The notes beneath the pieces are model-generated. The model saw only the letters and a program-made list of their open reading frames with translations. It had not been told where the DNA came from and did no database searches. A stretch of DNA of 61,511 bases, filler included, from Pseudomonadota bacterium (lineage in GTDB: Bacteria > Desulfobacterota > Desulfobacteria > Desulfobacterales > JBDRRP01), in NCBI GenBank assembly GCA_043825735.1. It is 4 parts of 4 records of this genome, joined end to end, with 100 filler letters (N's around TTAATTAATTAA, not from the genome) between each part and the next. Parts side by side here need not be neighbours in the genome. Positions count along the whole stretch, not along the records: positions 1 to 16,503 come from JBDRRP010000128.1; 3 more parts are not named here. The stretch is one strand, 5' to 3'. Within the stretch, counting starts at the first letter, position 1. Each line of letters starts with the position of its first letter. The translations under genes and the position numbers were made by a program. Shown one piece after another: positions 1-16,603 of the stretch.

Positions 1-27
1 CACCACACGGATTGCTACGGGAAACCT

Positions 28-1032
28 ATGCCCCGTAAGGCCCGCATAGACGCCGCAGGCGCGCTTCACCACATCATCGTGCGCGGCATCGAGCGCCGCA
101 AGGTGTTCATCGATGATGAAGATCGGGATGCGTTCATCGACCGGCTGGGAGCAATCCTTTCGCAGACCGGCACCCAGTGCTTCGCGTGGGCGCTGATCCC
201 CAACCATTTTCATTTGCTGCTGCGCACCGGCAATGTTCCCATTGCCACCGTGATGCGGCGTCTGCTGACAGGGCACGCCGTGACCTTCAACCGCAGGCAT
301 CGGCGCACCGGCCACCTGTTCCAGAACCGATACAAATCCATACTGTGCCAGGAAGACGCCTATTTGCTGGAACTGGTCCGTTACATTCACCTGAATCCGC
401 TGAGGGCCGGACTGGTTGATGACATGGCGGCGCTGGACACCTTTGTCTATTGTGGCCACAGCGTTGTGATGGGCATCTGCGACCAGGAATGGCAGAGCGC
501 CGGAGAGGTGCTGCGCCGGTTCGGAAAACAGATGAAATCGGCCCGCCAGCGCTACCGTGAATTCGTAAGAAAGGGGATCCAGCAGGGGAAACGCAAAGAT
601 CTGACCGGCGGCGGCCTGATCCGAAGTGCCGGCGGTTGGGCCTCGGTAAAGGCGCTCAGAGCCATGGACATCCACGAGAAGAGCGATGAGCGGATTTTGG
701 GCGACGGAGCGTTCGTCGAGAACATCCTGGCCGAGAATCGGGAAGCGCTGGAGAGGCGGTATGTGATGAAGGCCAAGGGGATAACCGTGGGCGAGGTGGC
801 CCTGCGGGTGGCTCAGGTCCTGGAAATGCCGGTCGATCGGGTCTGGGAACCGGGGAGGCAACAATCGCTGGTTAGTGCCCGGAGCCTGCTGTGCTTTTGG
901 GCGGTTCGCGAGTTAGGAGAGAGCATGGCCGCCATGGGCCGGCGGCTGGGGATCTCGACCGTTGCCGTCAGTAAGTCAGTCCGGCGAGGGGCTGAAATTG
1001 CGGAGCGGTTGAACGTTAAGTTAATAAGGTAA
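28..1032 (+). CDS. REP-associated (IS200/Y1 HUH) tyrosine transposase with C-terminal HTH (RAYT-like)
   Basis: MPRKARID...HHIIVRG N-terminus, HUH motif PNHFHLL, GHLFQNRYKS and RYIHLNP motifs; C-terminal HTH-like segment (ELGESMAAMGRRLG). Confidence 0.85.
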   Translation: MPRKARIDAAGALHHIIVRGIERRKVFIDDEDRDAFIDRLGAILSQTGTQCFAWALIPNHFHLLLRTGNVPIATVMRRLLTGHAVTFNRRHRRTGHLFQNRYKSILCQEDAYLLELVRYIHLNPLRAGLVDDMAALDTFVYCGHSVVMGICDQEWQSAGEVLRRFGKQMKSARQRYREFVRKGIQQGKRKDLTGGGLIRSAGGWASVKALRAMDIHEKSDERILGDGAFVENILAENREALERRYVMKAKGITVGEVALRVAQVLEMPVDRVWEPGRQQSLVSARSLLCFWAVRELGESMAAMGRRLGISTVAVSKSVRRGAEIAERLNVKLIR

Positions 1033-1042
1033 GGGCGTCCCC

Positions 1043-1612
1043 AAAGGCCCATTGAACATGGCCATCAGATTGTCGGCGACGATATTGAACAGATCGATAT
1101 CGATCCTGAGCTCAGTGGCCAGGGTGCGCATGGTCCACAGCGTTTTGGGGCAGATGTACTTGGCCTCGTCGCTTTCCTCTGTGATGTCCAGGGCGTAATG
1201 CCATTGGATGTTGTAGGAAAGCTGTTCGCAGGCCTGCTGATCGGTCAGATCGTGGTATTGCTGCAGGGCCAGGACACCTAAAACCGTGTGCCCCTCTTTG
1301 GCCGGTCTGCCGGTATGGCTCGTAAATACCAACGCCAGCTTATCGACGGGCAGCAAAGGAAGCACATGCTCCCGAAAAAAACCCGGCCAGTTCTCATCGA
1401 GCATTTTTCTTCGCTTTGGGCTCAATGAGTGCCAGGGGTCAAATAAATGTAGCTGTTTTCTGTGATCGATCCTGATCATGCTGTCCTCATAGCAACATAC
1501 TGATTTTGTTTATGATATATTGCCATGAAGCAAATCAGAAGTCAACGTTAAAAATCAATTTTACGAGAATTTTCTATAGGTTACATGGTGCGGACTTTTT
1601 ACGAACGGATCA
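1043..1612 (-). mobile_element. Truncated IS5/IS1182-like insertion sequence: left end plus N-terminal third of the transposase (ORF 1479..1021)
   Basis: ORF has DUF772-like features (TGRPAKE, LQQYHDLTDQQ, IQWHYALD) and breaks at the RAYT 3' end; candidate terminus TGATCCGTTCGTAAAAAGTC (minus strand) at 1612-1593. Confidence 0.65.
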
Positions 1613-4584: not shown

Positions 4585-7500
4585 TCACCTTTTCTTCTCC
4601 TCCGAAGCGATCCAGTTTGCGATGCCTTCATCATCGTACATTGCCGCATAATCCCTTATTTTTTCGCAAAAGTCGCCGTATTGCCCATGCTCGGCCTCCA
4701 GGCCGTCGAGAATCCTTGCGAGCACCGTGAATTCGCACCGCGACGCGCTCTTTTCGATTTCCTGCAGAATGTCCCTGGGCGGCAGACTGAAGGCTTTTTC
4801 CGCCGGCGGCGGCTGTGGCGGATCCGATTTCTCATGGCTTACCAGGCGCCTGGAGACAATTCCCAGGGTTTCACCCAGCACTCTTGCGAAGTGTTCCAGG
4901 CAATCCCCTATTTCGTCCCCTTTCCCACCGGCGGCTTCTTCCAGTTCGGCCGAAGCGTCGCTCAGTGCCGTAGCGCCGAGACTGGCGGCCGCACTTTTGA
5001 TGGAATGGGCCATGCGCCCGACGGTTTGGATATCCCCTGCAGCCAGGCATCGGCGCAGGGCCTCACCGGCGTTGCCGAATTCCCCTTCGAACCGTCTGAG
5101 CATTTTAGCATATAGCTCACGGCGACCTCCCAGGCGTCTCAATGCGCTTGGTTCGTCGAATCCTGCCGCAGTGAGGTCCGGAGCCGCCCCGCGCATGCAA
5201 ATCGCGGGCGTCTGCGCAGCGGCGCCGCCTGCCATCGGGGCCGCGATCCACTTGAGCAGCATCCGCTGCAACTGCTCTTCATTCAGGGGTTTGGAAAGAT
5301 AATCGTCCATGTCGCCGGCAAGGCATTTGTCTTTTTCTCCCTTCAGGGCGTGCGCGGTCACTGCGATGATCGGTGTCCGGGGCCGAGATCGCCGCCCCCG
5401 GCCGGATCGATCGGGGCCTTCGGCTTCTTCATCGCCCACCACCCACCGGCGGACTGCTTCCCAGTTCCGGATTTCCCGTGTGGCGGTGTAGCCATCCATC
5501 TCGGGCATCTGGATGTCCATGAGCACCGCATCATATCCATCCCCGGATTCGGTGATCCTTTCCACTGCCGCTCGACCGTTTTCGGCCACGTCGACCACCA
5601 GGCCGACATCTTCGAGAAAAGCGACCGCCACGTCCCGGTTGAGAGCGTTGTCCTCCACTACCAGTACGCGCCGGCCCCGCAACACGGATAGTTCATCCGA
5701 AAGGTGAACGCTTCGATGGGGCGCATTTTGCGCGATCAACGCCTCGTTTTTACCGAAAACCGTCATGATCGTATTGAACAGATGGGAAGGTTTGACCGGT
5801 TTGAAAAGGGTGGCTTCGACCGGGGTCGGGCGGCGCCGGCTTTCCATCATCTCCAGGCCGTGGGCCGTCACCATGATGATGACGGGAGGTTTCCCGGCAT
5901 CGGCAATGACCGGATCGATGCCGATCCGCTCAGCGGTCTCGAAACCGTCCATGCCCTCCATCTTCCAGTCCAGGAGCACCAACCGGTAAGGGTGGCTCGA
6001 AACGGCCCGGCGCAGTTCATCGAGGGCCAACTCGCCGCTTGCCGCGGCGGAAACCGCAAAGCCGAAGGATTCCAGGATATCGCGCAGTACCTGCCGCGAA
6101 CAGGCGCTGTCGTCCACCACCAGCGTCCTCAGACCGTGAAGCTCGCCGGGGGCACGGATGACGACGCTCTTTGGCTCCTCCCGCCGCCCCAAAAGCACGC
6201 TGAAAGAAAAAGTGCTGCCCCGACCGGGATCGCTGTGGGCCCAGATCTTTCCCTCCATCAATTCGACGAGCCGCCGGCAGATCGCAAGCCCCAGACCGGT
6301 GCCTTCATGCCTGCGGACTATGTAACCGCCGGCCTGGACGAACGGCTCGAAGAGATTGTCAACCATATCGGCGGCAATGCCCAGGCCACTGTCGCGCACC
6401 TGAAATCTCAGGCCGACGCGCTGCGGGAAGTGCCCGGCCTCGTCGTCCACCACGACGGTCAACACGATTTCTCCCTGTTCGGTGAATTTCACGGCGTTGT
6501 CGATCAGATTGATGAGAACCTGTGAAAGCCGCAGCCGGTCTCCCTCCAGCATCCGGGGTACCTCCGGATTGGCGTAAAAGAGGAGTTCCAGACCCTTTTG
6601 CTCCGCACGCTCGCTGAAGAGGTCGGCCAGCGGCTCCAGTAGTTCGTCGAGGGTAAACGGGGTGCACTCCAGTGCCAACCGGCCGGCTTCGACCTTGGAA
6701 AAATCGAGAATGTCATTGATGATCTCCAACAGATTGCCTGAAGCGATCTGGACCTTGTTGAGGTCTTCCCGCTGTTTGACGGTGAGTGCCGGCGACTTGA
6801 GCATCCCGCTGGTGATCCCGAGCACCGCATTGATCGGGGTGCGGATCTCGTGGCTCATGCGGGCCAGAAAATCACTCTTGGCCGCATTGGCCGACTCGGC
6901 CTGCTCCTTGGCGACGAGCAACTCGGCGGTGCGCTCCGCGACCATCACTTCGAGATGATCGCGGTGGGCCTTGATCTCCTCTGCGGCACGGTTTCGCTCC
7001 ATGAGCCGCCACATGCCTTCCATCAGGAGCGTCAGTTGCTGGGCATCCGTCTCGTCGTAGGGATATTCCTTATTGCCGACGCCTGCCACCAGAACGATGC
7101 GGTCATTGACGATCACGGGGACGTTCATGTGACGCGAGAGTCTGACGTGGCCTTCGGGATACCCCTTTTTCCAGGGATTGGGCGCATTGAAGTCGTTGGT
7201 GATGATCGCCTTGCGCTGCCGCACGGCTTCGCCCCACAGCCCGGTCTTGTCGACCGGAAAAATGAGGGGTTTTTCGCTGATGGCACATTCGGCCATAGCG
7301 GTACGGGACCAGAGTTGCATGGTCATGATCGTCTCATCCTCGTTCACAAAGGCCAGATACCCCACTTGGCTCCTGGTCAGCCGGATCGCTTCTTCGAATA
7401 CGAATTCCGTGACTTGCTGGACGGTCGCCTCGGTCATCTGGTTGAGTTTGAGCAAAACGGAAAGTCTCTCGGCATTGAGCCTGAGCGTCTCCTCCGCCCG

Positions 7501-9828
7501 TTTGCGTTCCGTGATGTCCTGAAAGGCGCCGACAATCCCTGCGACCTGGCCATCTTCATCTCGAAAAACACTCTTGCCCCAGATCACCGGCCGGACCACC
7601 CCGTTTTTGTCTACGACCTTGAACTCATAGACCTGTTTTTCAGGATGATCCATCAAATCGAGATCCTTTTGATGGTAAGTCTCTGCATATTCACTGGGCC
7701 AAAGCTCCATAACGGTTTTCCCCGTGTAATACTCCGGGGTAAAACCCATCAAATCGGCAAATGCGTCGTTCACCCCGATGTATCGACCTTGCTTGTCTTT
7801 ATAAAACAGTGGGATGGGTACAGCCGAAATGATCGATGTGACAAACTTCAAGGTTCTGTCAAGGCGTCGATGCGCCCGCTCACGCCCCTCTTCCGCCTTC
7901 ACCCGCTCGGTGATGTCCAGACAGAACTCGGCCATGCCGATGAGCCGTCCGCTGTCGTTTTTGATCGGATAGCCGCGAATAAACCACACACGGCCGCCAG
8001 GGCTGCGGATCTGCGCAGTCTGCGGCTCTCCGGTGTCTCTGGCCAAAAGGACCGGACAGCCGCTGCAGGGTTCGCTGCGTTGATGCCATAGCTCCCAGCA
8101 GCAGCGTCCGACGAGTTCATCCGGTTCCATGTCGATGGAAGTGGCAGCCACACGGTTGGCCCACAAAATCCGCATGTCCGTGTCATGATAGACGACCAGG
8201 TCCAAGGTGCTGTTCAAAAGGAGGGACTTTTCTTTTTCGGCGATCCTCAAGCCCTCCTCGATGCGTTTACGCTCCTCGATTTGCCCTGCCAACTGTTCGT
8301 TGGCCGCTCTGAGTTCGGCCGTGCGTTCCCCGACGCGCCGTTCCAGCCCGGCATGGGCGGTTCGAAGTGCTTCCTCCGCCTGTTTGCGCTCGGTGATATC
8401 GCGGCCGACCACGACCAGCCCCTTGCGCCGTCCGTCGGGATGAAAGGTCGGCACCTTGATGGTGTCGAAAATCCGCTGCGAGCCATCCGGTCGTGGGATC
8501 ACTTCATCGTTTCGGCTTATGGTCCGAGCCTGCCAGGCAGCCTTGTCGGTCTCTTCGCAGCCCTTGAGCGCATCGCGATAGAAGGAGGTGAATTCGGCCA
8601 GTTCACTGTCCGTCATACCCCGGTAGTCTATGTCCTCCAGCCCGAAGAATCGCAGGTTGAATTCATTGGTCTCCAGGTATCGGCCTTCGCCATCCTTGAA
8701 AATGACGAGATCCGGCATGGCATTGATCAGGGTGCGCAGTTGCTCCCGTCTTTCCTTCAACGCTTCCTCGGCCTGCTTGCGGGCGGTGATGAAGCGGGCT
8801 TGCTGCACATTCTGGTAGGCTTTCAGCGAAAGCTCATTGGCCAGCAGGAAAAGCACATCGGCGATCTTGCGGAACTGCCCCGCGGACATCACCGGTACTT
8901 CCTTCAAGGCCCTGCGAAATTCCACTTCATCGGTGCCGATCCTGGCGGCGTAGGCGATAATCTTCTCATCATCGATGGCCTCGTTCATGACCTGCCCGAC
9001 CAGCCAACTGGCGATGTGCCTGCCGCCCAGGGTGATGCTGGCGCCCGCGTCCCAGAGACCGCCGCTGAGGCAGGGCTGGATGACCGGACCATCAGGGTTT
9101 TGCCGGCCGATGATGGAATCCGAATAAAAGCAGTTGGCGCGTCCTTTTTCGGATTTGCGAATGATATCGTTGCACAGCCGGCAAAAATTGCTGGGTCGGG
9201 TAATCGGTGTTCCGTCCGGATGGGTAATCAGGGAGGCCACATTGGTGGCCTGGGCAAAGGCGTCCTGGATTTTCTGAAGGTCGTCGATATTGAAAAGATC
9301 GGAAAATTCGATGTCCTTGGCATCCAGCGGTTCGGTCAAGGCGATCAGCCGTCGGTGGAGCGCTGCTTCCACTTTCCTGCGTTCGTCGATTTCCCGCTGA
9401 AGCAAAATGTTCTGGGCCTTTTCCGCCTCGCGTGTTTTGCGCAAGGAGAGGTGCAGGGCAATTCGGGCCAGGACCTCTTCCACCTCGAAAGGTTTGCTCA
9501 CGCAGTCCACACCGCCCCTTTCGAAGCTTTGAACCTTGATCTCACTGGAGGATCGTTCCGTCGTGAAGATGACCGGCACCTCGCGGATCCGTTCAATGCG
9601 CTTCAACCGCCGGCAGATTTCAAATCCGTCCGAATCGGGCATGACCACCGCCAGCAGGATGATATCCGGCACGATAAAATCGGCCCGGCGGATGGCCTGT
9701 TCTCCCGTGGTCTCCACGAACACGTGATACCCCTGAGTTTCGAGCGCTGCCCTCAGACTGTCGAGGGTCGAAGATCGCTCGTCGACCAACAGGATCCGGG
9801 TTTTTCGGTGAGGGTGCTGGTTTTTCAT
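4585..9828 (-). CDS. Multi-sensor hybrid kinase (pseudo-REC-PocR-3xPAS-GAF-HisKA-HATPase-REC-REC-Hpt)
   Basis: PocR-like segment (LQKIQDAFAQATNVASLI...NFCRLC...GLWDAGASITLGGRHIASWLVGQV), GAF, H-box FLARMSHEIRTP, two RECs, Hpt motif AHSIKSAA. Confidence 0.92.
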   Translation of the reverse strand: MKNQHPHRKTRILLVDERSSTLDSLRAALETQGYHVFVETTGEQAIRRADFIVPDIILLAVVMPDSDGFEICRRLKRIERIREVPVIFTTERSSSEIKVQSFERGGVDCVSKPFEVEEVLARIALHLSLRKTREAEKAQNILLQREIDERRKVEAALHRRLIALTEPLDAKDIEFSDLFNIDDLQKIQDAFAQATNVASLITHPDGTPITRPSNFCRLCNDIIRKSEKGRANCFYSDSIIGRQNPDGPVIQPCLSGGLWDAGASITLGGRHIASWLVGQVMNEAIDDEKIIAYAARIGTDEVEFRRALKEVPVMSAGQFRKIADVLFLLANELSLKAYQNVQQARFITARKQAEEALKERREQLRTLINAMPDLVIFKDGEGRYLETNEFNLRFFGLEDIDYRGMTDSELAEFTSFYRDALKGCEETDKAAWQARTISRNDEVIPRPDGSQRIFDTIKVPTFHPDGRRKGLVVVGRDITERKQAEEALRTAHAGLERRVGERTAELRAANEQLAGQIEERKRIEEGLRIAEKEKSLLLNSTLDLVVYHDTDMRILWANRVAATSIDMEPDELVGRCCWELWHQRSEPCSGCPVLLARDTGEPQTAQIRSPGGRVWFIRGYPIKNDSGRLIGMAEFCLDITERVKAEEGRERAHRRLDRTLKFVTSIISAVPIPLFYKDKQGRYIGVNDAFADLMGFTPEYYTGKTVMELWPSEYAETYHQKDLDLMDHPEKQVYEFKVVDKNGVVRPVIWGKSVFRDEDGQVAGIVGAFQDITERKRAEETLRLNAERLSVLLKLNQMTEATVQQVTEFVFEEAIRLTRSQVGYLAFVNEDETIMTMQLWSRTAMAECAISEKPLIFPVDKTGLWGEAVRQRKAIITNDFNAPNPWKKGYPEGHVRLSRHMNVPVIVNDRIVLVAGVGNKEYPYDETDAQQLTLLMEGMWRLMERNRAAEEIKAHRDHLEVMVAERTAELLVAKEQAESANAAKSDFLARMSHEIRTPINAVLGITSGMLKSPALTVKQREDLNKVQIASGNLLEIINDILDFSKVEAGRLALECTPFTLDELLEPLADLFSERAEQKGLELLFYANPEVPRMLEGDRLRLSQVLINLIDNAVKFTEQGEIVLTVVVDDEAGHFPQRVGLRFQVRDSGLGIAADMVDNLFEPFVQAGGYIVRRHEGTGLGLAICRRLVELMEGKIWAHSDPGRGSTFSFSVLLGRREEPKSVVIRAPGELHGLRTLVVDDSACSRQVLRDILESFGFAVSAAASGELALDELRRAVSSHPYRLVLLDWKMEGMDGFETAERIGIDPVIADAGKPPVIIMVTAHGLEMMESRRRPTPVEATLFKPVKPSHLFNTIMTVFGKNEALIAQNAPHRSVHLSDELSVLRGRRVLVVEDNALNRDVAVAFLEDVGLVVDVAENGRAAVERITESGDGYDAVLMDIQMPEMDGYTATREIRNWEAVRRWVVGDEEAEGPDRSGRGRRSRPRTPIIAVTAHALKGEKDKCLAGDMDDYLSKPLNEEQLQRMLLKWIAAPMAGGAAAQTPAICMRGAAPDLTAAGFDEPSALRRLGGRRELYAKMLRRFEGEFGNAGEALRRCLAAGDIQTVGRMAHSIKSAAASLGATALSDASAELEEAAGGKGDEIGDCLEHFARVLGETLGIVSRRLVSHEKSDPPQPPPAEKAFSLPPRDILQEIEKSASRCEFTVLARILDGLEAEHGQYGDFCEKIRDYAAMYDDEGIANWIASEEKKR

Positions 9829-9862: not shown

Positions 9863-10540
9863 CTACAAAGATCCCACCGATTGTACCCCTGTGCCGGAGA
9901 GCTTCATCGGTAGCGTAGGATTCCTGCTGACCACAAACTCGCCATAATCGTCTCCGATCTCGATGCCTCTGGTTTGGACGCAGTAAAATGTCCCCATTCC
10001 GGCAGGATAGGGCTTGCCATAGGCCAGATCCATAAAGGCGGCGCACATACCGCGCATCATATACGCACTGGGCTGGCCGGCCCGGCCGTACAGGACGACA
10101 TCGCTCTCGTAGTAATCGTAGGCTCTGACAATCATCTTCTGCTTGGGAACAATCTCCTTGATTTCCGTATTGCCCCATCCCCAGACGGAGAAGGTGACGA
10201 AGACGGCATGGAGCATGTCCTCGATGGTTCTGACCATGGTCGACACGATCATGGTCCATTCCCGGGAAAGGATGACTCCGTGAGCGGTATGATACCCGCA
10301 TTGTCGGGCTGCATTCACCAGCAGTTCTTCCATCGACGGCAGCAATTCTTCCGGGACGCTGTTGATGATACGACGGGCAAACCCATTCCAGAAATCGACG
10401 GGCAGCCGCTGGATGTGCACACCGAAAAAGGGGATCAACCCCAGCGCATTGCTCACGACTTTCAGTTTCAATGTCTCTTCAACGATCTTCTCTTTATCGA
10501 TGGCCATGACGGCACTCCCTGATACGCTTCTTGATGGCAT
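9863..10540 (-). CDS. V4R (4-vinyl reductase)-like small-ligand-binding protein
   Basis: GWG motif followed by a beta strand, YMMRGMCAAF helix and cysteine-containing C-terminal segment typical of the V4R/HNOB fold; alternative start 10507. Confidence 0.65.
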   Translation of the reverse strand: MPSRSVSGSAVMAIDKEKIVEETLKLKVVSNALGLIPFFGVHIQRLPVDFWNGFARRIINSVPEELLPSMEELLVNAARQCGYHTAHGVILSREWTMIVSTMVRTIEDMLHAVFVTFSVWGWGNTEIKEIVPKQKMIVRAYDYYESDVVLYGRAGQPSAYMMRGMCAAFMDLAYGKPYPAGMGTFYCVQTRGIEIGDDYGEFVVSRNPTLPMKLSGTGVQSVGSL

Positions 10541-10568
10541 CGCATCTCCGGCCTGAGCGATTCACGTC

Positions 10569-11099
10569 TCAGCCCAGCACAGCCTTGAAAACGGAAACAT
10601 CATGGCCGGCCACCAGGGATCTTTCCTCCCTCACCGTGAAGTTCCCCGGCAGCCGGCCGGTGAACAATGCCGCTGCGGCCGCCACGTAACCCTGAGTGAT
10701 GAAGTTGACCTGCTTGTCCCGCCGCCCCCACTTTTCCAGCCAGCCCTGGTCTACGTGGGAAAATTCCATTTCGGCACAGACGGCATACTTTTCGACACAC
10801 TTGAAGCGGATCTGCCCCATGCCCACGGTTTCCCAATACTGTTCGGTGACGGCAATCCGCTCTTCGAGGCTGCCGGTCCCATACCGGTGGAAGTAGTGGC
10901 CCAGCACTTCGTGGAAAGTCTCTTCGGCCGCCCTGCGCAGATGATAGATACCGTCGAAGTCGTCTGCATCGTCGGCCAACTGGGAGATGAGCGCCGCATA
11001 GTGGTGGGAATGAAGCACGGTGCAGCACTCGTTCAGATACTGACGGCAGCTGTCCGGATCGAACTTTTCAACGATTTCGAGTCGACGTTTTCTGTCCAT
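10569..11099 (-). CDS. V4R-like protein
   Basis: GMGQIRF, FITQGYVAAAAA and VREERSLVAG...SVF pattern matches the V4R layout; VLHSHHY His cluster. Confidence 0.6.
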   Translation of the reverse strand: MDRKRRLEIVEKFDPDSCRQYLNECCTVLHSHHYAALISQLADDADDFDGIYHLRRAAEETFHEVLGHYFHRYGTGSLEERIAVTEQYWETVGMGQIRFKCVEKYAVCAEMEFSHVDQGWLEKWGRRDKQVNFITQGYVAAAAALFTGRLPGNFTVREERSLVAGHDVSVFKAVLG

Positions 11100-11189
11100 A
11101 CCGATTGCCTCCTGTGCCCGATGGATAGGCCCTGGGGATCGAAAAACCGGACCGGTGTCGCAGGCCCCGGCCGCGGGATCCGGCCCCCA

Positions 11190-11837
11190 TCAGCTTTGCC
11201 CGACGCTGCCGTCACGCCGCAATGAAACGCCGATCAGAACGGTTCCCGAACCTGTTTCATTTCTTCCCACAAAGTAGCGCTCTTTCAGGAAAAGATCGGT
11301 CGACAGTGCGGGACTGGCATAGATGATGGATTCGTGCGGCAGCGGGGTCTCATCCGAAGCACACCAGTCTGCGGGAAGGGGTGGAATCTCGAATCGGCAG
11401 ATTCTCTTCATGATATCTCTCGGGAAATCGATCCTGTCCTTGTAGACCGCGAAATTTTTGTTCAAAAACCAGACATGGGGCTGCCTTGCCAGGTGCTCGC
11501 CGGTCGCTTTGTCGCGAACCTCCTCGCCAACGACCTCCTCCCCTTTTTTGAGCAGCAAGGCGGGTTTTCGGCCCCAGTCGAAATCCATGCCCGTGAGCGC
11601 CACGAAAACCAGATCTCTTTCAAGCACTTCAACCATGCCGGTGTTGATCACTTCTCCCAGCCCGGACAGGGACTTTTTCCGGGCATCGGCCTCGAAATCG
11701 CGCACGTTTTCGTAGTCTTCGGCCAGCAGGGGACACACGGCGACGATGCCCCGGCTCTTTTGGAAGGCGGCGATCAATAGGACCGATTCATCCCGGCTTT
11801 GAGAATCTGCTCCCGGTTGTTTCATTTTCTTTGGCAC
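11190..11837 (-). CDS. Hypothetical protein in mta cluster
   Basis: 215-aa ORF, co-oriented between the activase and the V4R genes; no motif recognised with certainty. Confidence 0.7.
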   Translation of the reverse strand: MPKKMKQPGADSQSRDESVLLIAAFQKSRGIVAVCPLLAEDYENVRDFEADARKKSLSGLGEVINTGMVEVLERDLVFVALTGMDFDWGRKPALLLKKGEEVVGEEVRDKATGEHLARQPHVWFLNKNFAVYKDRIDFPRDIMKRICRFEIPPLPADWCASDETPLPHESIIYASPALSTDLFLKERYFVGRNETGSGTVLIGVSLRRDGSVGQS

Positions 11838-11917
11838 CTGTGCATGCCGGCGAATCCGTCAAAGGCCTCCACAAGCGGTGCGGCGTCGTACCGGCCGGCA
11901 CTGCAGCACTGGATCAT

Positions 11918-13648
11918 TTACAGGTCCCGTGTGACGGCTGCCGTCCGAGTGACTATGCTCGGGATCTTTTCATCGTCCATGCAGCGCAACAGCCAGCCGA
12001 GCGAGAAACATTTCCGGATGCATGCCGTTTCACACCTGCGGCATCCAACACCGTTGCACCGGGAAAGATCCAGACGGATTGCATACCCTTGTCCCTCCGC
12101 GTCGATCCGGAGCGCTCTTTCGGGGCAGGCTTGAACGCAGGCACCGTCGCCGCCGCACCCGTCGAAAACGGCCCGGTTCACTCGGCCGATATCATGAATG
12201 GCCACCAATCCCCCGGCGCCGGTATCCTGGATATCGCGGTTCACCGTTTTGATCACCAGCGGATCGGCCGATACCGGCGTTTTCGAAGGAAGCCCGAAAC
12301 GATGCATCAACTCACGGTAAAGCGCCATGGGCATGCCTTCGGTCCAATGGGCCAGTTCCAGAAGAAATACTTTCCTGAACACGGTGCAGGATGCAAACAT
12401 GCAGTGATGGCGCCTCAATCGATCGGCGATCCGCTGCAAGTCCCGAATCCGTCCGGGATTACGGACCAGATCGCGGGCCAGGGCCAGGGAGGTGTTTCCC
12501 ACCTGATAGATCCTTTTTACGTTTGCCGGCACCAGGCCCACCGCCTGGGCCTTTCGAGCATCGACGTAAGTGCCGGAAGCCCCGGACATGTAAGCGGTCT
12601 CAATCTCATCGATGCCGACACCGGCCGCCTGGCACAGGCTGATATGGCCGGCGCGGACCGCGCCGATGGCCTTGCCGGCTTCCGCCAGGTCCTTTTGTGT
12701 GAATCGCAGCCCGTCGGGCAATTTGATATCGCCGTCCAAGGTCCGGATTCGCGGAACGCGGATGAACCCGGCCTGTATTCCCTGGCTGACCAGGGCAACC
12801 ACGCCGGTCCCGGTGATGCCCGCCGCTTTGAGCTCGCCCCTGTCGATCACCCGGCCGGTTGCCGGGTCCACGCTGTCTCCAGGCCGCGGCAGCAGGTACC
12901 CATCGAGAACGAAGGTCCGCAGGCGGCCCCTGAGGGGAGCGTCTCCGGCAACTGCGGTCGCCGGCTGGAAATCGTCGGCTTCAAACTCGACATCACAAAT
13001 GGCGCCGGGAAGCGCCAGCAATCCGTTTTCGATATGCTGGCCCTCCAGGGCCGGGCCGGTGGCCGTCGATCCGGTGTAGACGATACCGCCCGCGATCAGC
13101 GCCATCTCCGCATTGGTGCCGTAGTCCGTGGCGATGGCGATTTCATCCTTGTCCAGCATTCCGCTGTGGATCATCAGGGCCAGCGCATCGGCTCCAATTT
13201 CGTGGCGCACCGAAGGCGGTATATAGACTTCCGCCGCCAGTTCGAGGCCCCGGATCCGGTCCGCCTTCAATACCCTGGCGTCCCGGCAGGGAGAAACCAC
13301 CTTCAGAGCGCTCAATTTTCGCTTTCCCGCAAAGGCCAGGTCCCTGATTTCGATACCTTCGAACAAGGAGAGTTGAATGGGATTTCCGCAGACGGCCAGA
13401 CGCTGGATTCGACTCCGGTCAACGTGCAACGCCGCGATGACCCTGTTCACCGCGCCAATGATCAGTGACTGGGCAATGTCCAGGCCCACCTCCAGGGCGA
13501 AGTGCAGATGATCCATGACATTGGCGCCGGGAAGCGGATGACGGGTCGAAACGGATGTGGACAGGATCCGGCCGTCGTTATCAAGCGCGATGGCCTGGGC
13601 CCGGAAGCCGCTGGTACCCAGATCCATGGCCACGCCGAGTCGATCCAT
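11918..13648 (-). CDS. ramA: Corrinoid protein reductive activase, RamA type (ASKHA ATPase plus C-terminal ferredoxin-like domain)
   Basis: DLGTSGFRAQ, HPLPGANVMDHLHFA, TDYGTNAEMAL, GPALEGQ motifs; C-terminal CxxDxxCxxxCP and CxxxxCxxCxxxC; no N-terminal 2Fe-2S domain. Confidence 0.9.
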   Translation of the reverse strand: MDRLGVAMDLGTSGFRAQAIALDNDGRILSTSVSTRHPLPGANVMDHLHFALEVGLDIAQSLIIGAVNRVIAALHVDRSRIQRLAVCGNPIQLSLFEGIEIRDLAFAGKRKLSALKVVSPCRDARVLKADRIRGLELAAEVYIPPSVRHEIGADALALMIHSGMLDKDEIAIATDYGTNAEMALIAGGIVYTGSTATGPALEGQHIENGLLALPGAICDVEFEADDFQPATAVAGDAPLRGRLRTFVLDGYLLPRPGDSVDPATGRVIDRGELKAAGITGTGVVALVSQGIQAGFIRVPRIRTLDGDIKLPDGLRFTQKDLAEAGKAIGAVRAGHISLCQAAGVGIDEIETAYMSGASGTYVDARKAQAVGLVPANVKRIYQVGNTSLALARDLVRNPGRIRDLQRIADRLRRHHCMFASCTVFRKVFLLELAHWTEGMPMALYRELMHRFGLPSKTPVSADPLVIKTVNRDIQDTGAGGLVAIHDIGRVNRAVFDGCGGDGACVQACPERALRIDAEGQGYAIRLDLSRCNGVGCRRCETACIRKCFSLGWLLRCMDDEKIPSIVTRTAAVTRDL

Positions 13649-13729
13649 TCTGATTTGCCCCCCCCCCGGCGAACCCCGTCCGGGCGTCAGAAACCCGCAG
13701 TTTGCGATCCGGCATCGCCGGTTATTCAG

Positions 13730-15106
13730 CTAAAGACCATAGGACGCTGGATTGAACCCTTTGACTTGTCGATACTTATGCAGACACCGATCGATAAAGT
13801 CGCCTTCGTCATCCGGTAGCGATTCCAATTCCACGACGGCCTTCAGCAAGGCTTCTTTCTCATGGGCCGTCAGGCGCATCAGCGGGTCGGAAAGGATGAT
13901 TTCACCAGCCTTGACGGCGGCGATCCGGGCGCAGGCGTAGTCGCCGTTATTCCGGTTGGAGGCAATGACACGTCCGATTTGCCAGGCGTTGTCGGGTGCC
14001 AGAATCAGGCTGTGCGAATCGCGGTACATATCGGAGTTGACGAGGATTTCCTGCATCTGCCGCTGATAGCCCAATTCGATTGCCGAATTGAGCATGGCGC
14101 AATCGTAACCCAGGATTTCGGCGAAAACCGACGGGGTGGTGGCACCGAACATGTCATGGTATTCGACCGCTTCGTTGCTCCACAGGTCGCAGACGGCCAT
14201 CATCAGGTTGCCGCAGAGATCGGAATGCGCACAGGCGCTGGTTTTTCCTTCAGTGGCGATGGGGATCCCGGTGATCGCCTTGATGATGGGGTTTTCATAG
14301 GCGCAGTCCTTGGCAGGCCCGGTGGCCCCGCATTCATAGGCGATCAGCGAGTTGGCGGCCGACATTGCGCGACACAGGGCGGCAATGACATGGGGTACGT
14401 CTTTAGAGATCATGCCGCCGGCCATGAACATGGCCGTGTTTGCCTGGGAACAGTTGGTATCCCCGCCGGCAATACAGCCGTTCCGGCGGGAGATCTCCAC
14501 GATCCGGGTCCACAGCCATTCCATATCCAGGGCACCCAGGACACCGATGGCAAAGAGCAGACCGACGATGTCGTTGCGGATGATGCTGTGGTCGAAGACT
14601 TCCTTGCCGCCCAGAGATTCAATGGAAAGGATGTCGGCGTACTTGGCGCATTCATCAAAGGCTTCCAGAACCTTGGCAGTGGCATCGCTTTCTCTCAGGT
14701 GGTACATGTCGGGTTTTCGCAGGTCGGCCACTGTCGCCCGGTAAGATGACTTCAATCCGTATCGGCGATGATGGTCATCCATCTGCCGGCCGGCTTGAGA
14801 CGCAATCTCGGCACCCCATTTGGGATTGTTGGTCATCTGATAGATGTGCTCGTTTTCGATCTGCACTGCGGGATGTCCGATGATGACCATGCGTTCCAGG
14901 ATGTCACCGTTGGCTCTTTCATATTCACGCATTAGCGTCCGCAACGTCTTCTCACTGCCCGGCCGGGGATGAGGCTTGACCTCCGGATGCACGTGCCCGC
15001 CGCCAATCACTAGGCCACGTTTGGTGGAGACAGGTTTTCTGGCGGTGCCGAAGACCAACTCGGCGCTGCTGCCATAGGCCATTTCGGTTATCTTGAGCCG
15101 TTTCAT
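13730..15106 (-). CDS. mtaB: Methanol:corrinoid methyltransferase (MT1)
   Basis: MAY...LVFG...GLVIGGG N-terminus, SIESLGGKEVFD, GGDTNCSQANTAMF, GPAKDCAYE, EGKTSACAHSD, DLWSNE; start placed at ATG 15106 after GAGGGAAGG. Confidence 0.93.
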   Translation of the reverse strand: MKRLKITEMAYGSSAELVFGTARKPVSTKRGLVIGGGHVHPEVKPHPRPGSEKTLRTLMREYERANGDILERMVIIGHPAVQIENEHIYQMTNNPKWGAEIASQAGRQMDDHHRRYGLKSSYRATVADLRKPDMYHLRESDATAKVLEAFDECAKYADILSIESLGGKEVFDHSIIRNDIVGLLFAIGVLGALDMEWLWTRIVEISRRNGCIAGGDTNCSQANTAMFMAGGMISKDVPHVIAALCRAMSAANSLIAYECGATGPAKDCAYENPIIKAITGIPIATEGKTSACAHSDLCGNLMMAVCDLWSNEAVEYHDMFGATTPSVFAEILGYDCAMLNSAIELGYQRQMQEILVNSDMYRDSHSLILAPDNAWQIGRVIASNRNNGDYACARIAAVKAGEIILSDPLMRLTAHEKEALLKAVVELESLPDDEGDFIDRCLHKYRQVKGFNPASYGL

Positions 15107-15155
15107 ATCGCCTTCCCTCATTGCCGATGGCCGGTGGATTTGACCGGCGTTCCCA

Positions 15156-15902
15156 TCACCCATTCCATTTGGTGCGCATGGCCTGCCAGGTTTCCCCCGA
15201 AGCGGCATCGTCGGCCATACCAGTTGCCTGGCCAGCCTCCTTGCCATAAATCCCCAGATCGAAACCGGTCACATACTCTTCGTTCACCGCTCCTCCGCCG
15301 CAGGCAAATGGGATGATGAGACCGGCCTGTTTGAGTTGATGGGCGATCCTGGGGAAAGCCGTCATGGTGGTCGTCATCAGCGCGGTGCCCGTGACCATGA
15401 CCGGGTTGTGCTCCTTGCAGGCCGCCACCACTGTTTCGACCGGGACATCGGCGCCCAGATTGATGACTTCATAGCCGTTGGCATTGAGCAGTGCATTGAC
15501 GATAACCTGCCCGATGTCATGGATATCGCCTTCGGCGGTATGCGTTACCACTTTGGCCTTGCGAGCCATGGCCTTGCCCAATTTCCTTTCACATTCGGCG
15601 ATTCCGGCGGACATGGCGTCCGAGGAGAGGATGACCTGCGGCAGGAAATATACCCCTTCCTCCCAGAGGCGGCTTACCTCGTTCATCCCCGGAATCAGTG
15701 CGTTGTTGATGACTTCCATAGGAGGGCTGGTTTCAAGTGCCCTGATCACCGCCGGGACGATCCCGTCCGGGTCCCCTTCCACGACAAACCTCGCGATTTC
15801 TTGCAAGACGGGGTCATCGGAGACCTGCTTGGGCTTTCCAGTCTTTTCCAGGGCAAGGTCATAGCGTCGGAAAATATGAGAGAAATCGTTCAAAACGATC
15901 AC
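15156..15902 (-). CDS. mtaC: Methanol-specific corrinoid protein
   Basis: B12-binding motif EGDIHDIG, GTALMTTTM, CGGGAVN; AAGGAGG RBS before GTG; directly upstream of mtaB. Confidence 0.92.
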   Translation of the reverse strand: MIVLNDFSHIFRRYDLALEKTGKPKQVSDDPVLQEIARFVVEGDPDGIVPAVIRALETSPPMEVINNALIPGMNEVSRLWEEGVYFLPQVILSSDAMSAGIAECERKLGKAMARKAKVVTHTAEGDIHDIGQVIVNALLNANGYEVINLGADVPVETVVAACKEHNPVMVTGTALMTTTMTAFPRIAHQLKQAGLIIPFACGGGAVNEEYVTGFDLGIYGKEAGQATGMADDAASGETWQAMRTKWNG

Positions 15903-16294
15903 GTCATCCTCCTTTCCGAAAGGGTGTCGGTAACAAATCCGCCCACCGATGGGGGGCTTTTAAAAGACGGTGCTGGTGAGGAGTCGATCTTGTGACCGGA
16001 TTGCCCAACGCCCCGGCTTTTGAAGGTACCCGGTTCGCCGGTCACCCCGGTCACGGCCGGGGCTTGATGCGATATTGGGGCTCGAATGATCAAACGATAT
16101 CGTTGATCCGCACTTCAATCTGAATTCAACGTCTTGATACTATGCAATCGAAAAAACCAACGGCGGATTGTCAATTCGCTAAAGAATTGACCAGAAAACC
16201 ACGAATGAAAACAGCAATGATTGTATGCAACTGATGTATAGAAGACAATAACCGACATCTGAATTTCGCTCAAGGAAAATTGGATAATGGGTCA

Positions 16295-16400
16295 GGGTCG
16301 GACAAAGCTATCCGATTGTCATTCCTACAAAAATCTCGAAAACATCCCCTCAAAATTGCCTTAAAACTTACATTTCGCATGTTTCAAAAATAGTTTTCCC
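16295..16400 (+). repeat. Dispersed ~100-bp repeat family B (copy on contig 1)
   Basis: GGGTCGGACAAAGCTATCCG...CGAAAACATCCCCTCAAAATTGCCTTAAAAC matches copies at 29429, 30274 and 37823. Confidence 0.8.
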
Positions 16401-16503
16401 CAATCAGCGAAAAATATTATTTAAATCAGCTATGTAGCTCTAAATTGCCACCAGCGACTATTGAGCATTTTGTACACAACCTCTGGAACTTCAAGAAGCC
16501 TAT

Positions 16504-16603
16504 NNNNNNNNNNNNNNNNNNNNNNNNNNNNNNNNNNNNNNNNNNNNTTAATTAATTAANNNNNNNNNNNNNNNNNNNNNNNNNNNNNNNNNNNNNNNNN
16601 NNN
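16504..16603. other. Artificial contig linker
   Basis: N44-TTAATTAATTAA-N44. Confidence 0.99.

What the first reader, a model, noticed from the sequence alone, without database searches (positions are those of the whole stretch)
11918..15902. Methanogen-type methanol methyltransferase set (mtaC-mtaB-ramA) in a deltaproteobacterial-looking genome
Seen: an MtaC with the RYDLALEK leader and HTAEGDIHDIG/GTALMTTTM motifs, a full MtaB, and an activase with a C-terminal ferredoxin domain. Established: methylotrophic methanogens use RamA-type activases with C-terminal [4Fe-4S] clusters, while acetogens and other bacteria usually use RACo with an N-terminal [2Fe-2S]. Inference: an archaeal-like methanol-activation module, possibly horizontally acquired, that could let a probable sulfate reducer use methanol.
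Basis: partly seen in the sequence, partly recalled or inferred. Interest (0 to 1): 0.82.

Follow-up and report, generated by a model that had tools for sequence, protein, structure and literature searches.

The report
Bacterial methanol methyltransferase genes, sulfate reducer
A sulfate-reducer genome assembled from groundwater carries intact genes for taking the methyl group off methanol with a vitamin-B12 protein, but they are the version already common in related bacteria, not a recent loan from methane-making archaea, and one gene of the pathway is missing from the assembly.

Summary
Observation confirmed. On the minus strand lie mtaC (15156-15902), mtaB (13730-15106) and a RamA-type activase (11918-13648), all intact, with cobalt- and zinc-ligand residues in place. 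The window is several contigs joined by N spacers. The cluster sits on one 16.5-kb contig (window 1-16503) of a 6.8-Mb MAG that has dsrAB.

Interpretation partly supported. MtaB and RamA fall in a well-supported clade of Desulfobacterales-named MAGs. This clade lies inside a large bacterial group that is sister to the methanogen clade, not within it. Forcing the window's MtaB into the methanogen clade is rejected (p-AU 1e-6). RamA-type activases with the C-terminal Fe-S domain are the rule beside mtaB in bacteria too. MtaB is rare in the host lineage: family 0 of 2, order 6 of 200, phylum 2 of 400. Lateral spread among bacteria is therefore plausible. No mtaA orthologue is in the assembly, and the contig breaks in an IS repeat upstream of mtaC.

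mtaB in a Gram-negative sulfate reducer is already in print (PMC7808614). This scan met the same cluster twice before on other DNA. New member of a known kind.

The parts
15156..15902 (-). mtaC, methanol-specific corrinoid protein (248 aa, GTG start)
   Evidence: Pfam B12-binding_2 and B12-binding. 2i2x_B at E 1.2e-64. DxHxxG with His128 and an AAGGAGG site before the GTG. 73-80% identical to the MtaC of the nearest, Desulfobacterales-type loci (66-71% in the sister clade) and 42-49% to the archaeal methanogen loci. NCBIfam methanogen equivalog NF040655 scores 262 bits, below its cut-off of 420.
13730..15106 (-). mtaB, methanol:corrinoid methyltransferase (458 aa from the ATG at 15106; the longer ORF to 15247 overlaps mtaC)
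   Evidence: PF12176 at 661 bits. 2i2x_A at E 1.2e-141, with E163, C219 and C268 aligned to chain residues 164, 220 and 269. Nearly all relatives listed are 457-459 aa. Only 10 clade-unique substitutions, all conservative.
11918..13648 (-). ramA, ATP-dependent reductive activase of corrinoid proteins with a C-terminal Fe-S domain (576 aa)
   Evidence: TIGR04270 at 708 bits against a cut-off of 500. RACo_C_ter and Raco_middle. Fe-S motifs C498-x2-D501-x2-C504-x3-C508-P and C531-x4-C536-x2-C539-x3-C543.
11190..11825 (-). conserved gene of unknown function just downstream of ramA (211 aa from the ATG at 11825; 215 aa from the GTG at 11837)
   Evidence: No Pfam or NCBIfam match. Homologues stand in 18 of 82 mta loci, all of the Desulfobacterota type and beside ramA in most of them. 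118 other protein clusters, all unnamed or 'hypothetical'. AF2 model with pLDDT 85.4. Weak but one-sided likeness to the nitroreductase/BluB/IYD fold, Z 4.5-6.4.
10569..11099 (-). orphan ORF (176 aa), probably coding
   Evidence: Codon-position GC of 0.62/0.38/0.73, like the mta genes. No homologue in the mta loci or elsewhere in the genome. No family match.
9863..10540 (-). orphan ORF (225 aa), probably coding
   Evidence: Codon-position GC of 0.54/0.41/0.68. No homologue found. No family match.
4585..9828 (-). hybrid sensor histidine kinase with a PocR sensory domain (1747 aa), downstream on the same strand
   Evidence: Pfam: three receiver domains, PocR, PAS, GAF, HisKA, HATPase_c and Hpt. 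No PocR kinase stands in the six relatives' loci.
1619..4462 (-). second hybrid sensor histidine kinase (947 aa)
   Evidence: Pfam: receiver, PAS, HisKA and HATPase_c domains.
15903..16349 (.). non-coding stretch of about 450 bp upstream of mtaC; no mtaA here
   Evidence: No ORF with a family match. The tblastn with the relatives' MtaA finds nothing on this contig. No sigma-54 consensus with 2 or fewer mismatches.
16350..16503 (.). end of a multi-copy insertion sequence, at which the contig breaks
   Evidence: 97-100% identical to C28:3558-3694, C132:5218-5374 and C124:3128-3279. On C28 it overlaps the 3' end of a DUF4277 ORF that looks like a transposase. Word depth is 78.8 here against about 25 for the cluster.
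1..1479 (.). IS fragments at the other contig end (IS200-like Y1 transposase at 28-1032, +; DUF772 fragment at 1021-1479, -)
   Evidence: Pfam. Bases 1-141 are 100% identical to the end of C72, and 902-1047 are 97% identical to C73. Word depth is 43.6.
16504..16603 (.). artificial joint between contigs (N44-TTAATTAATTAA-N44), not biology

Best explanation
This is the methanol-activating half (MT1 = MtaB + MtaC) of a corrinoid-dependent methanol methyl-transfer system, with its own RamA-type ATP-dependent reductive activase and a conserved accessory gene of unknown function. It is the version typical of Desulfobacterales-like bacteria.

Inferred mechanism, from the M. barkeri enzyme:
- Zinc-bound MtaB polarises the C-O bond of methanol.
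- Co(I) of the His-on corrinoid on MtaC takes the methyl group.
- RamA uses ATP and low-potential electrons, passed through its C-terminal Fe-S domain, to bring oxidised Co(II) back to Co(I).
- A second methyltransferase then passes the methyl group on, most likely to tetrahydrofolate.
- The methyl group is oxidised through the methyl branch of the Wood-Ljungdahl pathway, with sulfate as electron sink.

Shown: gene identity, intactness, ligand residues, phylogenetic place, rarity in the lineage, and the presence of dsrAB, FTHFS, MTHFR and CODH-family genes in the bin.

Inferred: activity on methanol, the methyl acceptor, the link to sulfate reduction, and lateral acquisition from other bacteria rather than from archaea.

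Open: the second methyltransferase. The cognate mtaA is not in the assembly. It may lie beyond the IS at the contig break, or an unrelated pterin-binding methyltransferase elsewhere in the genome may stand in.
For: Identity and intactness:
- Searches give the family matches. Searches give the alignments to 2i2x.
- E163, C219 and C268 of MtaB and His128 of MtaC sit in the aligned ligand positions.
- The 10 substitutions unique to the window within its clade are all conservative, against 7 and 8 in its two nearest sisters.

Phylogeny:
- Careful MtaB tree of 70 rows. The window pairs with an 86%-identical metagenome protein (support 100/99) inside a 20-row clade (100/97) of Desulfobacterales-, Desulfobacteraceae- and delta-proteobacterium-named rows plus order kin.
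- That clade lies in a 39-row, mainly bacterial clade (100/99; it also holds two archaeal rows, Methanocella and a Methanospirillaceae MAG) that is sister to the 14-row methanogen clade (100/98).
- The RamA tree is congruent: a 15-row clade with support 98.
- The identity gradients of all three proteins agree.

The cluster is a recurrent unit:
- The order relatives carry HK - sigma-54 regulator - mtaA - mtaC - cobW - sigma-54 activator - mtaB - small ORF - ramA - the roughly 200-aa unknown.
- One of them carries it at 1.41 Mb on a 5.7-Mb contig.

Belonging to the bin:
- Tetranucleotide distance ranks 28th of 49 among contigs of 8-35 kb. GC is 0.567 against 0.575 for the genome.
- Both contig ends are repeats shared at 97-100% with five other contigs of the bin.
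- Word depth is 21.7-25.4 over the unique parts, and about twice and three times that over the two end repeats.
- The bin is not a strain mixture: 34 kb of 6.8 Mb is duplicated at 85% identity or more.

Downstream metabolism in the bin:
- dsrA at 616 bits with dsrB beside it.
- FTHFS x2, MTHFR x9 and Prismane/CODH family x5.

Precedent:
- The mta operon is methanol- and cobalt-induced in the sulfate reducer D. kuznetsovii (PMC5770442, passages read).
Against: - No MtaA orthologue. The best tblastn hit to the relatives' MtaA is 23-24% identical. The only two URO-D genes of the bin belong to other corrinoid clusters.
- No cobW homologue either.
- No expression evidence exists.
- The contig has no syntenic counterpart in the same-genus or same-family genomes. 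Its membership in the genome therefore rests on composition, shared repeats and depth ratios.
- No Gram-negative sulfate reducer has been shown to grow on methanol by this route. The paper read says that all known mtaB-bearing methanol oxidisers among sulfate reducers are Gram-positive (PMC7808614).
- The methanogen equivalog models of NCBIfam are not passed: MtaB 647 against 720, MtaC 262 against 420.
Confidence: 0.75

Rival explanations
1. Direct transfer from a methylotrophic methanogen: an archaeal methanol-activation module recently acquired by a sulfate reducer.
For: Relative to the acetogen-type MtaB (35% identity), the window's MtaB lies on the methanogen side of the family. The RamA subfamily model, named after the methanogen enzyme, is passed. 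The gene order mtaC-mtaB is as in the Methanosarcinales loci. An earlier paper proposed transfer between methanogens and D. kuznetsovii (PMC5770442).
Against: Identity to Methanosarcinales and Methanomassiliicoccaceae proteins is 42-50%, against 54-80% to Desulfobacterales-type proteins. The window sits deep inside a bacterial clade with 100/99 support. GC and tetranucleotide make-up are those of the host bin.
Confidence: 0.03
2. The 16.5-kb contig is mis-binned and belongs to another organism in the same groundwater community.
For: The genome is a MAG of 160 contigs with 3.69% estimated contamination. It is much larger than its same-genus relative (6.8 against 4.1 Mb). No part of the contig has a syntenic match in the same-genus or same-family genome. 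Composition was probably used for binning, so it is not independent evidence.
Against: Both contig ends are repeats shared at 97-100% identity with five other contigs of the bin. A 40-bp stretch of the right-end repeat also matches a contig end of the same-genus genome at 93%. The word depth of the repeats is about two and three times that of the unique part, as expected if the copies sit in one population. Composition is unremarkable. Even if the contig were mis-binned, the nearest relatives of all three proteins are Desulfobacterales-type, so the donor organism would be of the same kind.
Confidence: 0.12
3. The cluster is an incomplete remnant. IS activity cut away mtaA, cobW and the regulators, so the organism cannot channel methanol-derived methyl groups.
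For: An IS end lies about 450 bp upstream of mtaC, and IS fragments lie at the other contig end. mtaA, cobW and the sigma-54 activator, all present in the nearest relatives' clusters, are missing here. The first two have no homologue anywhere in the bin. The window's end branches are longer than its nearest neighbour's (MtaB 0.14 against 0.039; RamA 0.74 against a median of 0.27).
Against: All four genes are open with plausible ribosome-binding sites. Ligand residues are kept, and the clade-unique changes are few and conservative. Contigs under about 2 kb are not in the bin (shortest 2069 bases), so a short mtaA contig between IS copies could have been lost. The genome has a pterin-binding methyltransferase in an O-demethylase-like cluster that might accept methyl-MtaC (inference).
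Confidence: 0.15

Closest known systems
Methanol methyltransferase clusters of Desulfobacterales-type MAGs and genomes, and mtaB of Desulfospira joergensenii as noted in PMC7808614
   Same: Same clade of MtaB (72-86% identity), MtaC (73-80%) and RamA (54-63%). Same unknown gene after ramA (36-54% identity, 18 of 82 loci). Same Asp in the first Fe-S motif of RamA (13 of 36 rows).
   Different: The nearest relatives have mtaA - mtaC - cobW - sigma-54 activator - mtaB - small ORF - ramA, with a kinase and sigma-54 regulator pair upstream. The window has a compact mtaC-mtaB-ramA set without mtaA, cobW, the activator or the small ORF. It is followed by two orphan ORFs and a PocR-domain hybrid kinase, and is bounded by IS copies.
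MtaB/MtaC (MT1) of Methanosarcina barkeri, PDB 2i2x, with RamA of methanogens
   Same: Same families and full-length alignment, with the zinc-ligand and cobalt-ligand positions kept. RamA has the same architecture, an ASKHA ATPase plus a C-terminal two-cluster ferredoxin-like domain.
   Different: Only 44-50% (MtaB), 42-49% (MtaC) and 45-48% (RamA) identical. It belongs to the sister clade, not the same clade. It scores below NCBIfam's methanogen equivalog cut-offs. The host has no known use for coenzyme M, so the methyl acceptor must differ (inference). Motif 1 of RamA has Asp where the archaeal proteins have the second Cys.
Methanol methyltransferase operon of Desulfofundulus (Desulfotomaculum) kuznetsovii, the only sulfate reducer with experimental support (PMC5770442)
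   Same: It is a sulfate reducer with mtaB and mtaC, and its MtaB clusters with methanogens rather than acetogens. Methyl-THF oxidation coupled to sulfate reduction has been proposed for it.
   Different: It is a Gram-positive host. The Firmicutes-type loci in my set are 52-59% identical in MtaB and have the order mtaB-mtaC. D. kuznetsovii itself was not among my loci. Its operon holds two mtaA genes and B12 synthesis genes (paper, passages read).
RACo / AcsV-type activases with an N-terminal [2Fe-2S] domain (PDB 3zyy)
   Same: Same middle and ASKHA ATPase domains (Pfam; 3zyy_X at E 8.3e-18).
   Different: The window's protein has no N-terminal Fer2 domain and carries the C-terminal Fe-S domain instead. 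The same genome also has a true RACo with N-terminal Fer2, in an O-demethylase-like cluster on another contig.

Membership tests
MtaB, methanol:corrinoid methyltransferase (Pfam PF12176) | Full-length match to the family model above its curated cut-off | tested here: met
   661 bits against a cut-off of 25, over model positions 3-460 of 460.
MtaB, methanol:corrinoid methyltransferase (Pfam PF12176) | Zinc ligands Glu164, Cys220 and Cys269 of the M. barkeri enzyme (the roles of these residues are recalled; the paper is not held) | tested here: met
   In the HMMER alignment to 2i2x_A, E163, C219 and C268 of the window's protein stand opposite chain residues 164, 220 and 269.
Methanogen MtaB equivalog (NCBIfam NF040651 MtaB_Meth) | Score at or above the curated equivalog cut-off | tested here: not met
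   647.2 bits against a cut-off of 720.
MtaC, methanol corrinoid protein | B12-binding_2 cap plus Rossmann B12-binding domain with the DxHxxG histidine ligand | tested here: met
   Both Pfam domains are above their cut-offs. GDIHDIG with His128 aligns to GDVHDIG of 2i2x_B.
Methanogen MtaC equivalog (NCBIfam NF040655 MtaC_Meth) | Score at or above the curated equivalog cut-off | tested here: not met
   261.8 bits against a cut-off of 420.
RamA-type corrinoid reductive activase (NCBIfam TIGR04270) | Full-length match above the subfamily cut-off, C-terminal domain included | tested here: met
   708.4 bits against a cut-off of 500, residues 5-550 on model positions 2-529 of 534.
RamA-type corrinoid reductive activase (NCBIfam TIGR04270) | Two complete four-cysteine [4Fe-4S] motifs in the C-terminal domain (feature recalled from the RamA paper, not held) | tested here: inconclusive
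   Motif 2 has four Cys. Motif 1 reads C-x2-D-x2-C-x3-CP, with Asp501 in place of the second Cys. This holds in 13 of 36 aligned rows; 22 have Cys and 1 has His. Which cluster forms cannot be told from sequence.
Complete MtaABC methanol methyl-transfer system | A cognate MT2 (MtaA/CmuA family) encoded with or near mtaCB | tested here: not met
   Present next to mtaC in 5 of the 6 order relatives; the sixth locus starts inside mtaC. In the window's assembly the best hit is 23-24% identical and lies in other clusters. An assembly gap is not excluded.
Archaeal (methanogen) clade of MtaB | Branches within or directly beside archaeal sequences | tested here: not met
   It lies inside a 39-row, mainly bacterial clade (100/99) that is sister to the methanogen clade. 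Union with the methanogens is rejected at p-AU 1.06e-6.
Nitroreductase / BluB / IYD flavoenzyme fold (for the unknown gene at 11190-11825) | Clear structural match and a flavin-binding site | tested here: inconclusive
   AF2 model with pLDDT 85.4. With VIA-align wide, most of the 50 rows shown, including the top 24, are of this superfamily, but at Z 4.5-6.4 with rmsd 4-5 A over 110-130 residues. Foldseek gives nothing at E 0.001 or lower. No sequence family matches.

The most novel reading that the evidence does not exclude
The Desulfobacterales-type module may be a distinct bacterial variant of the methanol-activation machinery. Its marks are an MtaCB pair, a RamA whose first Fe-S motif carries Asp instead of Cys, and a clade-restricted partner protein with a possible nitroreductase-like fold. 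In this genome it would work without a cognate MtaA, handing the methyl group to an unrelated pterin-binding methyltransferase. That would give a Gram-negative sulfate reducer a corrinoid route for methanol oxidation, which has never been shown in that group.
Probability: 0.2. Interest if true: 0.55.

Novelty: new member of a known kind. Interest (0 to 1): 0.3.

Why it matters
Methanol is treated as a substrate that methanogens do not have to share with sulfate reducers. Whether Gram-negative sulfate reducers take it up by the corrinoid route bears on carbon and sulfur budgets in anoxic groundwater and sediments. This locus adds one more genome to a set that already runs to dozens. Its particular value is small:
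- It shows a compact, IS-bounded form of the cluster without mtaA.
- Comparison with its relatives brings out two untested features of the whole bacterial clade: the Asp variant in RamA and the conserved unknown partner gene.
- It corrects the idea that a RamA-type activase marks archaeal origin.

Tried and rejected
- Expression. No RNA holder is listed for the stretch. Of the two metatranscriptome runs of the same study, one laid nothing. The other laid five pieces of about 30 bases, all in the kinase genes. This says nothing either way.
- Coverage comparison with other contigs was not possible. The runs are kept as contigs only, and the single read-laying run went to this contig.
- Sigma-54 promoter. 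Relatives have sigma-54 activators, but the consensus TGGCAC-N5-TTGCW (recalled) has no match with 2 or fewer mismatches between 15903 and 16350. Window-wide it gives 29 matches against 34.7 expected. The sigma-70-like and terminator-like hits are at chance level.
- Synteny. A DNA search with window 1500-16400 in the same-genus and same-family genomes gave only domain-level kinase matches at 64-78%.
- The two orphan ORFs and the unknown gene have no Pfam or NCBIfam match. The protein atlas gave no usable hit for the unknown gene. Foldseek against the PDB gave nothing at E 0.001 or lower.
- The antisense ORF 11334-11780 (+) has weaker hits in the same loci. I take it as the shadow of the conserved minus-strand gene.
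- The idea that the bin is two strains was rejected: only 34 kb is duplicated.
- The RamA paper (PMC2629093) and the MtaBC structure paper (PMC1748152) are not held. What I say of them is recalled.
- Supplements of the papers read were not opened.
- No complex prediction was run.

Full report
**What is there.** On the minus strand of window 11190-15902 lie four co-directional genes.

- mtaC (15156-15902) encodes a 248-aa corrinoid protein. Its GTG start follows an AAGGAGG site. It matches M. barkeri MtaC (2i2x_B) at E 1.2e-64.
- mtaB is best read from the ATG at 15106, giving 458 aa. The longer ORF that reaches 15247 overlaps mtaC. Nearly all of the relatives listed are 457-459 aa, and a GAGGGAAGG site precedes this ATG. 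It matches Pfam MtaB at 661 bits end to end and 2i2x_A at E 1.2e-141. E163, C219 and C268 stand opposite chain residues 164, 220 and 269 of 2i2x_A. I recall these as the zinc ligands; the structure paper is not held.
- ramA (11918-13648) encodes 576 aa. It has the RACo middle and ASKHA domains and a cysteine-rich C-terminus. It passes NCBIfam's RamA subfamily model at 708 bits against a cut-off of 500.
- A fourth gene (11190-11825) follows directly. It has no family assignment.

**The window is a chain of contigs.** Three N44-TTAATTAATTAA-N44 spacers and the mapping given by the genome search show this. Window 1-16503 is one 16.5-kb contig, C128, of a MAG. The MAG has 6,799,029 bases in 160 contigs, completeness 100 and contamination 3.69.

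- Everything beyond 16503 is unrelated DNA, so only 1-16503 counts as neighbourhood.
- Downstream of the cluster lie two orphan ORFs with coding-like codon-position GC and two large hybrid histidine kinases. One kinase has a PocR sensory domain.
- Both contig ends are insertion-sequence copies.
- The right end, about 450 bp upstream of mtaC, is 97-100% identical to stretches on contigs C28, C132 and C124. On C28 it overlaps the 3' end of a DUF4277 ORF that looks like a transposase.

**Does the contig belong to the genome?**

- Its GC (0.567 against 0.575) and tetranucleotide distance (rank 28 of 49 among contigs of 8-35 kb) are ordinary.
- Its ends share repeats with five other contigs of the bin.
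- In Logan's contigs of the one DNA run that holds it, a groundwater metagenome that may be the source, the unique parts have word depth 21.7-25.4. The two end repeats have 43.6 and 78.8. This fits two and three copies at one abundance.
- The bin is not a mixture of close strains: 34 kb of 6.8 Mb is duplicated at 85% identity or more.
- Against this, nothing syntenic exists in the same-genus or same-family genome, and I could not measure the depth of other contigs.
- I put mis-binning at about one in eight. The nearest relatives of the genes are of the same bacterial kind in any case.

**Host.** The bin has dsrA (616 bits, cut-off 393) with dsrB beside it. It has two FTHFS genes, nine MTHFR homologues and five Prismane/CODH-family genes. 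Fragments of CdhC lie at two contig ends. 'Probable sulfate reducer with a Wood-Ljungdahl methyl branch' therefore holds. An earlier agent of this scan called the genome Desulfobacterales-like. The names of the closest gene relatives agree with that.

**Where the genes come from.**

- A word-indexed search found 3778 MtaB relatives among the 7999 candidates scored. The 119 best other than the window's own protein are 72-86% identical. The few that carry organism names are Deltaproteobacteria, Desulfobacteraceae and Desulfobacterium MAGs.
- A scan of one genome per species gave 603 confirmed stretches, of which the best 80 were kept as 76 loci.
- MtaB identity falls in steps:
  - 73-75% in MAGs named Desulfobacterales, Desulfobacteraceae, Desulforhopalus or delta proteobacterium;
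  - 61-69% in a mixed set of Syntrophaceae, Spirochaetales, Aegiribacteria, Dehalococcoidia and three Gammaproteobacteria, plus Methanocella sp. (62%) and a Methanospirillaceae MAG (59%);
  - 52-59% in Bacillota, Armatimonadota and Actinomycetota;
  - 44-50% in Methanosarcinales and Methanomassiliicoccaceae.
- MtaC and RamA show the same order.
- I added unnamed 50%-cluster representatives. Some of these I could name through cluster look-ups: Methanobrevibacter, Methanomethylophilus, Methanosphaera, Hodarchaeota, Armatimonadota, Chthonomonadales, and the acetogen Eubacterium maltosivorans at 35% identity.

**The MtaB tree.** I built a careful tree of 70 rows, with three quarters of the Methanosarcinales rows thinned out, rooted on the acetogen row.

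- The 14 methanogen rows form one clade (100/98).
- Its sister is a 39-row, mainly bacterial clade (100/99); besides bacteria it holds the Methanocella and Methanospirillaceae rows.
- Within that clade a 30-row group (100/100) holds the window, in a 20-row clade (100/97). The window pairs there with an 86%-identical metagenome protein (100/99).
- Holding the window and its two nearest relatives together with the methanogens costs 117 log-likelihood units and is rejected (p-AU 1.06e-6).
- The RamA tree places the window in the matching 15-row clade (support 98). Its outgroup was too distant to root it.

**Rarity.** MtaB was found in 0 of 2 other genomes of the host's family, 6 of 200 sampled in its order and 2 of 400 sampled in its phylum. 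One of these carries it inside a 5.7-Mb contig.

- It is met in its first half: the clade is bacterial and populous.
- It is not met in its second half: the distribution is patchy.
- The simplest reading is lateral spread of a ready-made cluster among anaerobic bacteria. The split from the archaeal versions is old.

- In my set, 30 of 37 bacterial mta loci (31 named plus 6 order relatives) have a full-length RamA-type gene within 7 kb of mtaB. Three more hold partial or split copies, one holds an AcsV/RACo-type gene, and three hold none.
- All 13 bacterial copies that I submitted score 696-790 bits on TIGR04270 over the whole model. They came from Desulfobacterota, Aegiribacteria, Dehalococcoidia, Gammaproteobacteria, Bacillota, Armatimonadota and Actinomycetes.
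- The RamA architecture therefore goes with this branch of MtaB in both domains.
- I did not examine loci of the acetogen-type MtaB branch, where RACo may be the rule.
- The window's own genome also has a classical RACo with an N-terminal 2Fe-2S domain. It sits in an O-demethylase-like cluster on another contig: corrinoid protein, URO-D methyltransferase, MFS transporter, pterin-binding methyltransferase.

**What differs from the relatives.** The nearest relatives share a longer cluster: kinase, sigma-54 response regulator, mtaA, mtaC, cobW, sigma-54 activator, mtaB, a small ORF, ramA, and the roughly 200-aa unknown gene. Their MtaA passes NCBIfam's MtaA/CmuA subfamily cut-offs.

- The window has only mtaC-mtaB-ramA-unknown. 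mtaC and mtaB are 49 bp apart.
- mtaA and cobW have no homologue anywhere in the assembly. The best MtaA hits are 23-24% identical and lie in other corrinoid clusters.
- mtaA may sit beyond the IS on a contig too short to be binned (the shortest contig in the bin is 2069 bases). It may be truly lost. Or the pterin-binding methyltransferase of the other cluster may stand in. I cannot tell which.
- The genes show no decay. Ten substitutions are unique to the window's MtaB within its clade, all conservative, against 7 and 8 in its two nearest sisters.

**Two features of the whole clade.**

1. In the first Fe-S motif of RamA, the window and 12 other rows read C-x2-D-x2-C-x3-CP. These are all the Desulfobacterales-type rows. 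22 rows have the canonical second Cys; they include the archaeal, Bacillota and Dehalococcoidia rows and two of the three gammaproteobacterial rows. The third gammaproteobacterial row (L037, Sedimenticolaceae) has His (36 rows in all). From general knowledge of ferredoxins, an Asp at this place can ligate a [4Fe-4S] cluster or leave a [3Fe-4S] cluster. What happens here is unknown.
2. The gene after ramA has homologues in 18 of the 82 loci. All 18 are Desulfobacterota-type clusters, counting one Dehalococcoidia and one 'Pseudomonadota'-named MAG. None of the other 64 loci has one within 7 kb.
   - A database search found 118 other clusters, all unnamed or 'hypothetical' and without Pfam domains.
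   - An AlphaFold model built on 14 sequences is confident (pLDDT 85.4, pTM 0.79).
   - Foldseek finds nothing significant.
   - An exhaustive structural search returns mostly nitroreductase, BluB and iodotyrosine-deiodinase-type flavoenzymes; the top 24 rows are all of this superfamily. The scores are only Z 4.5-6.4, a range the tool warns can be a common arrangement.
   - A flavin- or corrinoid-handling helper is a reasonable guess, no more.

**What is in print.**

- Sousa et al. 2018 (PMC5770442, passages read) showed methanol- and cobalt-dependent abundance of the Mta proteins in the Gram-positive sulfate reducer D. kuznetsovii. They found its MtaB nearer to methanogens than to acetogens and proposed horizontal transfer.
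- Sim et al. 2021 (PMC7808614, abstract and passages read) surveyed 52 further sulfate reducers that had been tested for methanol oxidation. They placed the mtaB of the Gram-negative Desulfospira joergensenii with that of D. kuznetsovii and called the distribution patchy and transfer-like. They also stated that all known mtaB-bearing methanol oxidisers among sulfate reducers are Gram-positive.
- A review notes that D. joergensenii made sulfide from methanol without growth (PMC8048578, passage read).
- A 2026 preprint reports mtaB transcripts from a Geobacterales MAG (10.64898/2026.08.27.747368, passages read).
- Searches for mtaB together with Desulfobacterales, Desulfobacterota or Desulfobacteraceae listed 3, 19 and 2 papers. 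Going by their titles, and by the passages I read in three of them, none is a biochemical or physiological study of the Desulfobacterota-type system.
- Two earlier reports of this scan describe the same cluster on other DNA, one in Desulfobacteraceae and one in Dehalococcoidia. Both judged it ordinary. My results agree.

**Verdict.** This is a real, intact MT1-plus-activase module of the known Desulfobacterales type. It was probably acquired laterally from other bacteria, is not archaeal in any recent sense, and is incomplete in the assembly. It is a new member of a known kind, of modest interest. The Asp variant of RamA and the conserved partner gene are the parts most worth a bench test.

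Noticed in passing
L051:7001-9835 (Methanocella sp. MCL-LM chromosome) and L035:7001-10045 (Methanospirillaceae MAG): The MtaB and RamA of these two archaea, from orders usually taken as hydrogenotrophic (recalled), branch inside the bacterial clade. They are sister to three gammaproteobacterial rows (99/96 in the MtaB tree, 98 in the RamA tree). The Methanocella RamA ORF is only 479 aa and lacks the C-terminal Fe-S domain (model positions 2-469 of 534).
   Followed up: partly
L034, L036, L037 (Methylococcaceae, Candidatus Thiodiazotropha and Sedimenticolaceae MAGs): Complete mtaC-mtaB-ramA sets stand in gammaproteobacterial MAGs, including one named as a sulfur-oxidising symbiont genus (61-63% MtaB identity). 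These are unexpected hosts for an oxygen-sensitive corrinoid methanol system.
   Followed up: no
G000 contig C120:1273-6994 (locus L096): A second corrinoid methyl-transfer cluster lies in the same genome: corrinoid protein, URO-D-type methyltransferase, MFS transporter, pterin-binding methyltransferase, and a RACo activase with an N-terminal 2Fe-2S domain. It resembles an O-demethylase system. Type VI secretion genes lie next to it.
   Followed up: partly
G000 contig C37:1553-5947 (locus L097): A third small corrinoid set: a B12-binding protein, a URO-D methyltransferase and a DUF1638 protein, followed by a hybrid histidine kinase. DUF1638 has been linked genetically to B12 reactivation for methionine synthase (PMC5764234, passages read).
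   Followed up: no
window 4585-9828 (-): A 1747-aa hybrid histidine kinase with three receiver domains and PocR, PAS, GAF and Hpt domains lies on the same strand downstream of the mta genes. The relatives use sigma-54 two-component regulators instead. Whether this kinase senses methanol or a corrinoid is open.
   Followed up: no
window 29572-30101 (-), 31192-31834 (+), 25372-26826 (+), 27962-29149 (+); contig C131: On the next contig of the window lie a ParE-like toxin with a putative antitoxin, a PIN-domain toxin with a Phd/YefM antitoxin, and two AAA_14/DUF4143 ATPases. This looks like a small island of toxin-antitoxin and defence-like genes, unrelated to the finding.
   Followed up: no
G000 as a whole: The genome has nine MTHFR-family genes, five Prismane/CODH-family genes and two FTHFS genes. 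At 6.8 Mb it is far larger than its same-genus relative (4.1 Mb). Duplication between contigs is only 0.5%, so these are paralogues and not a strain mixture.
   Followed up: partly
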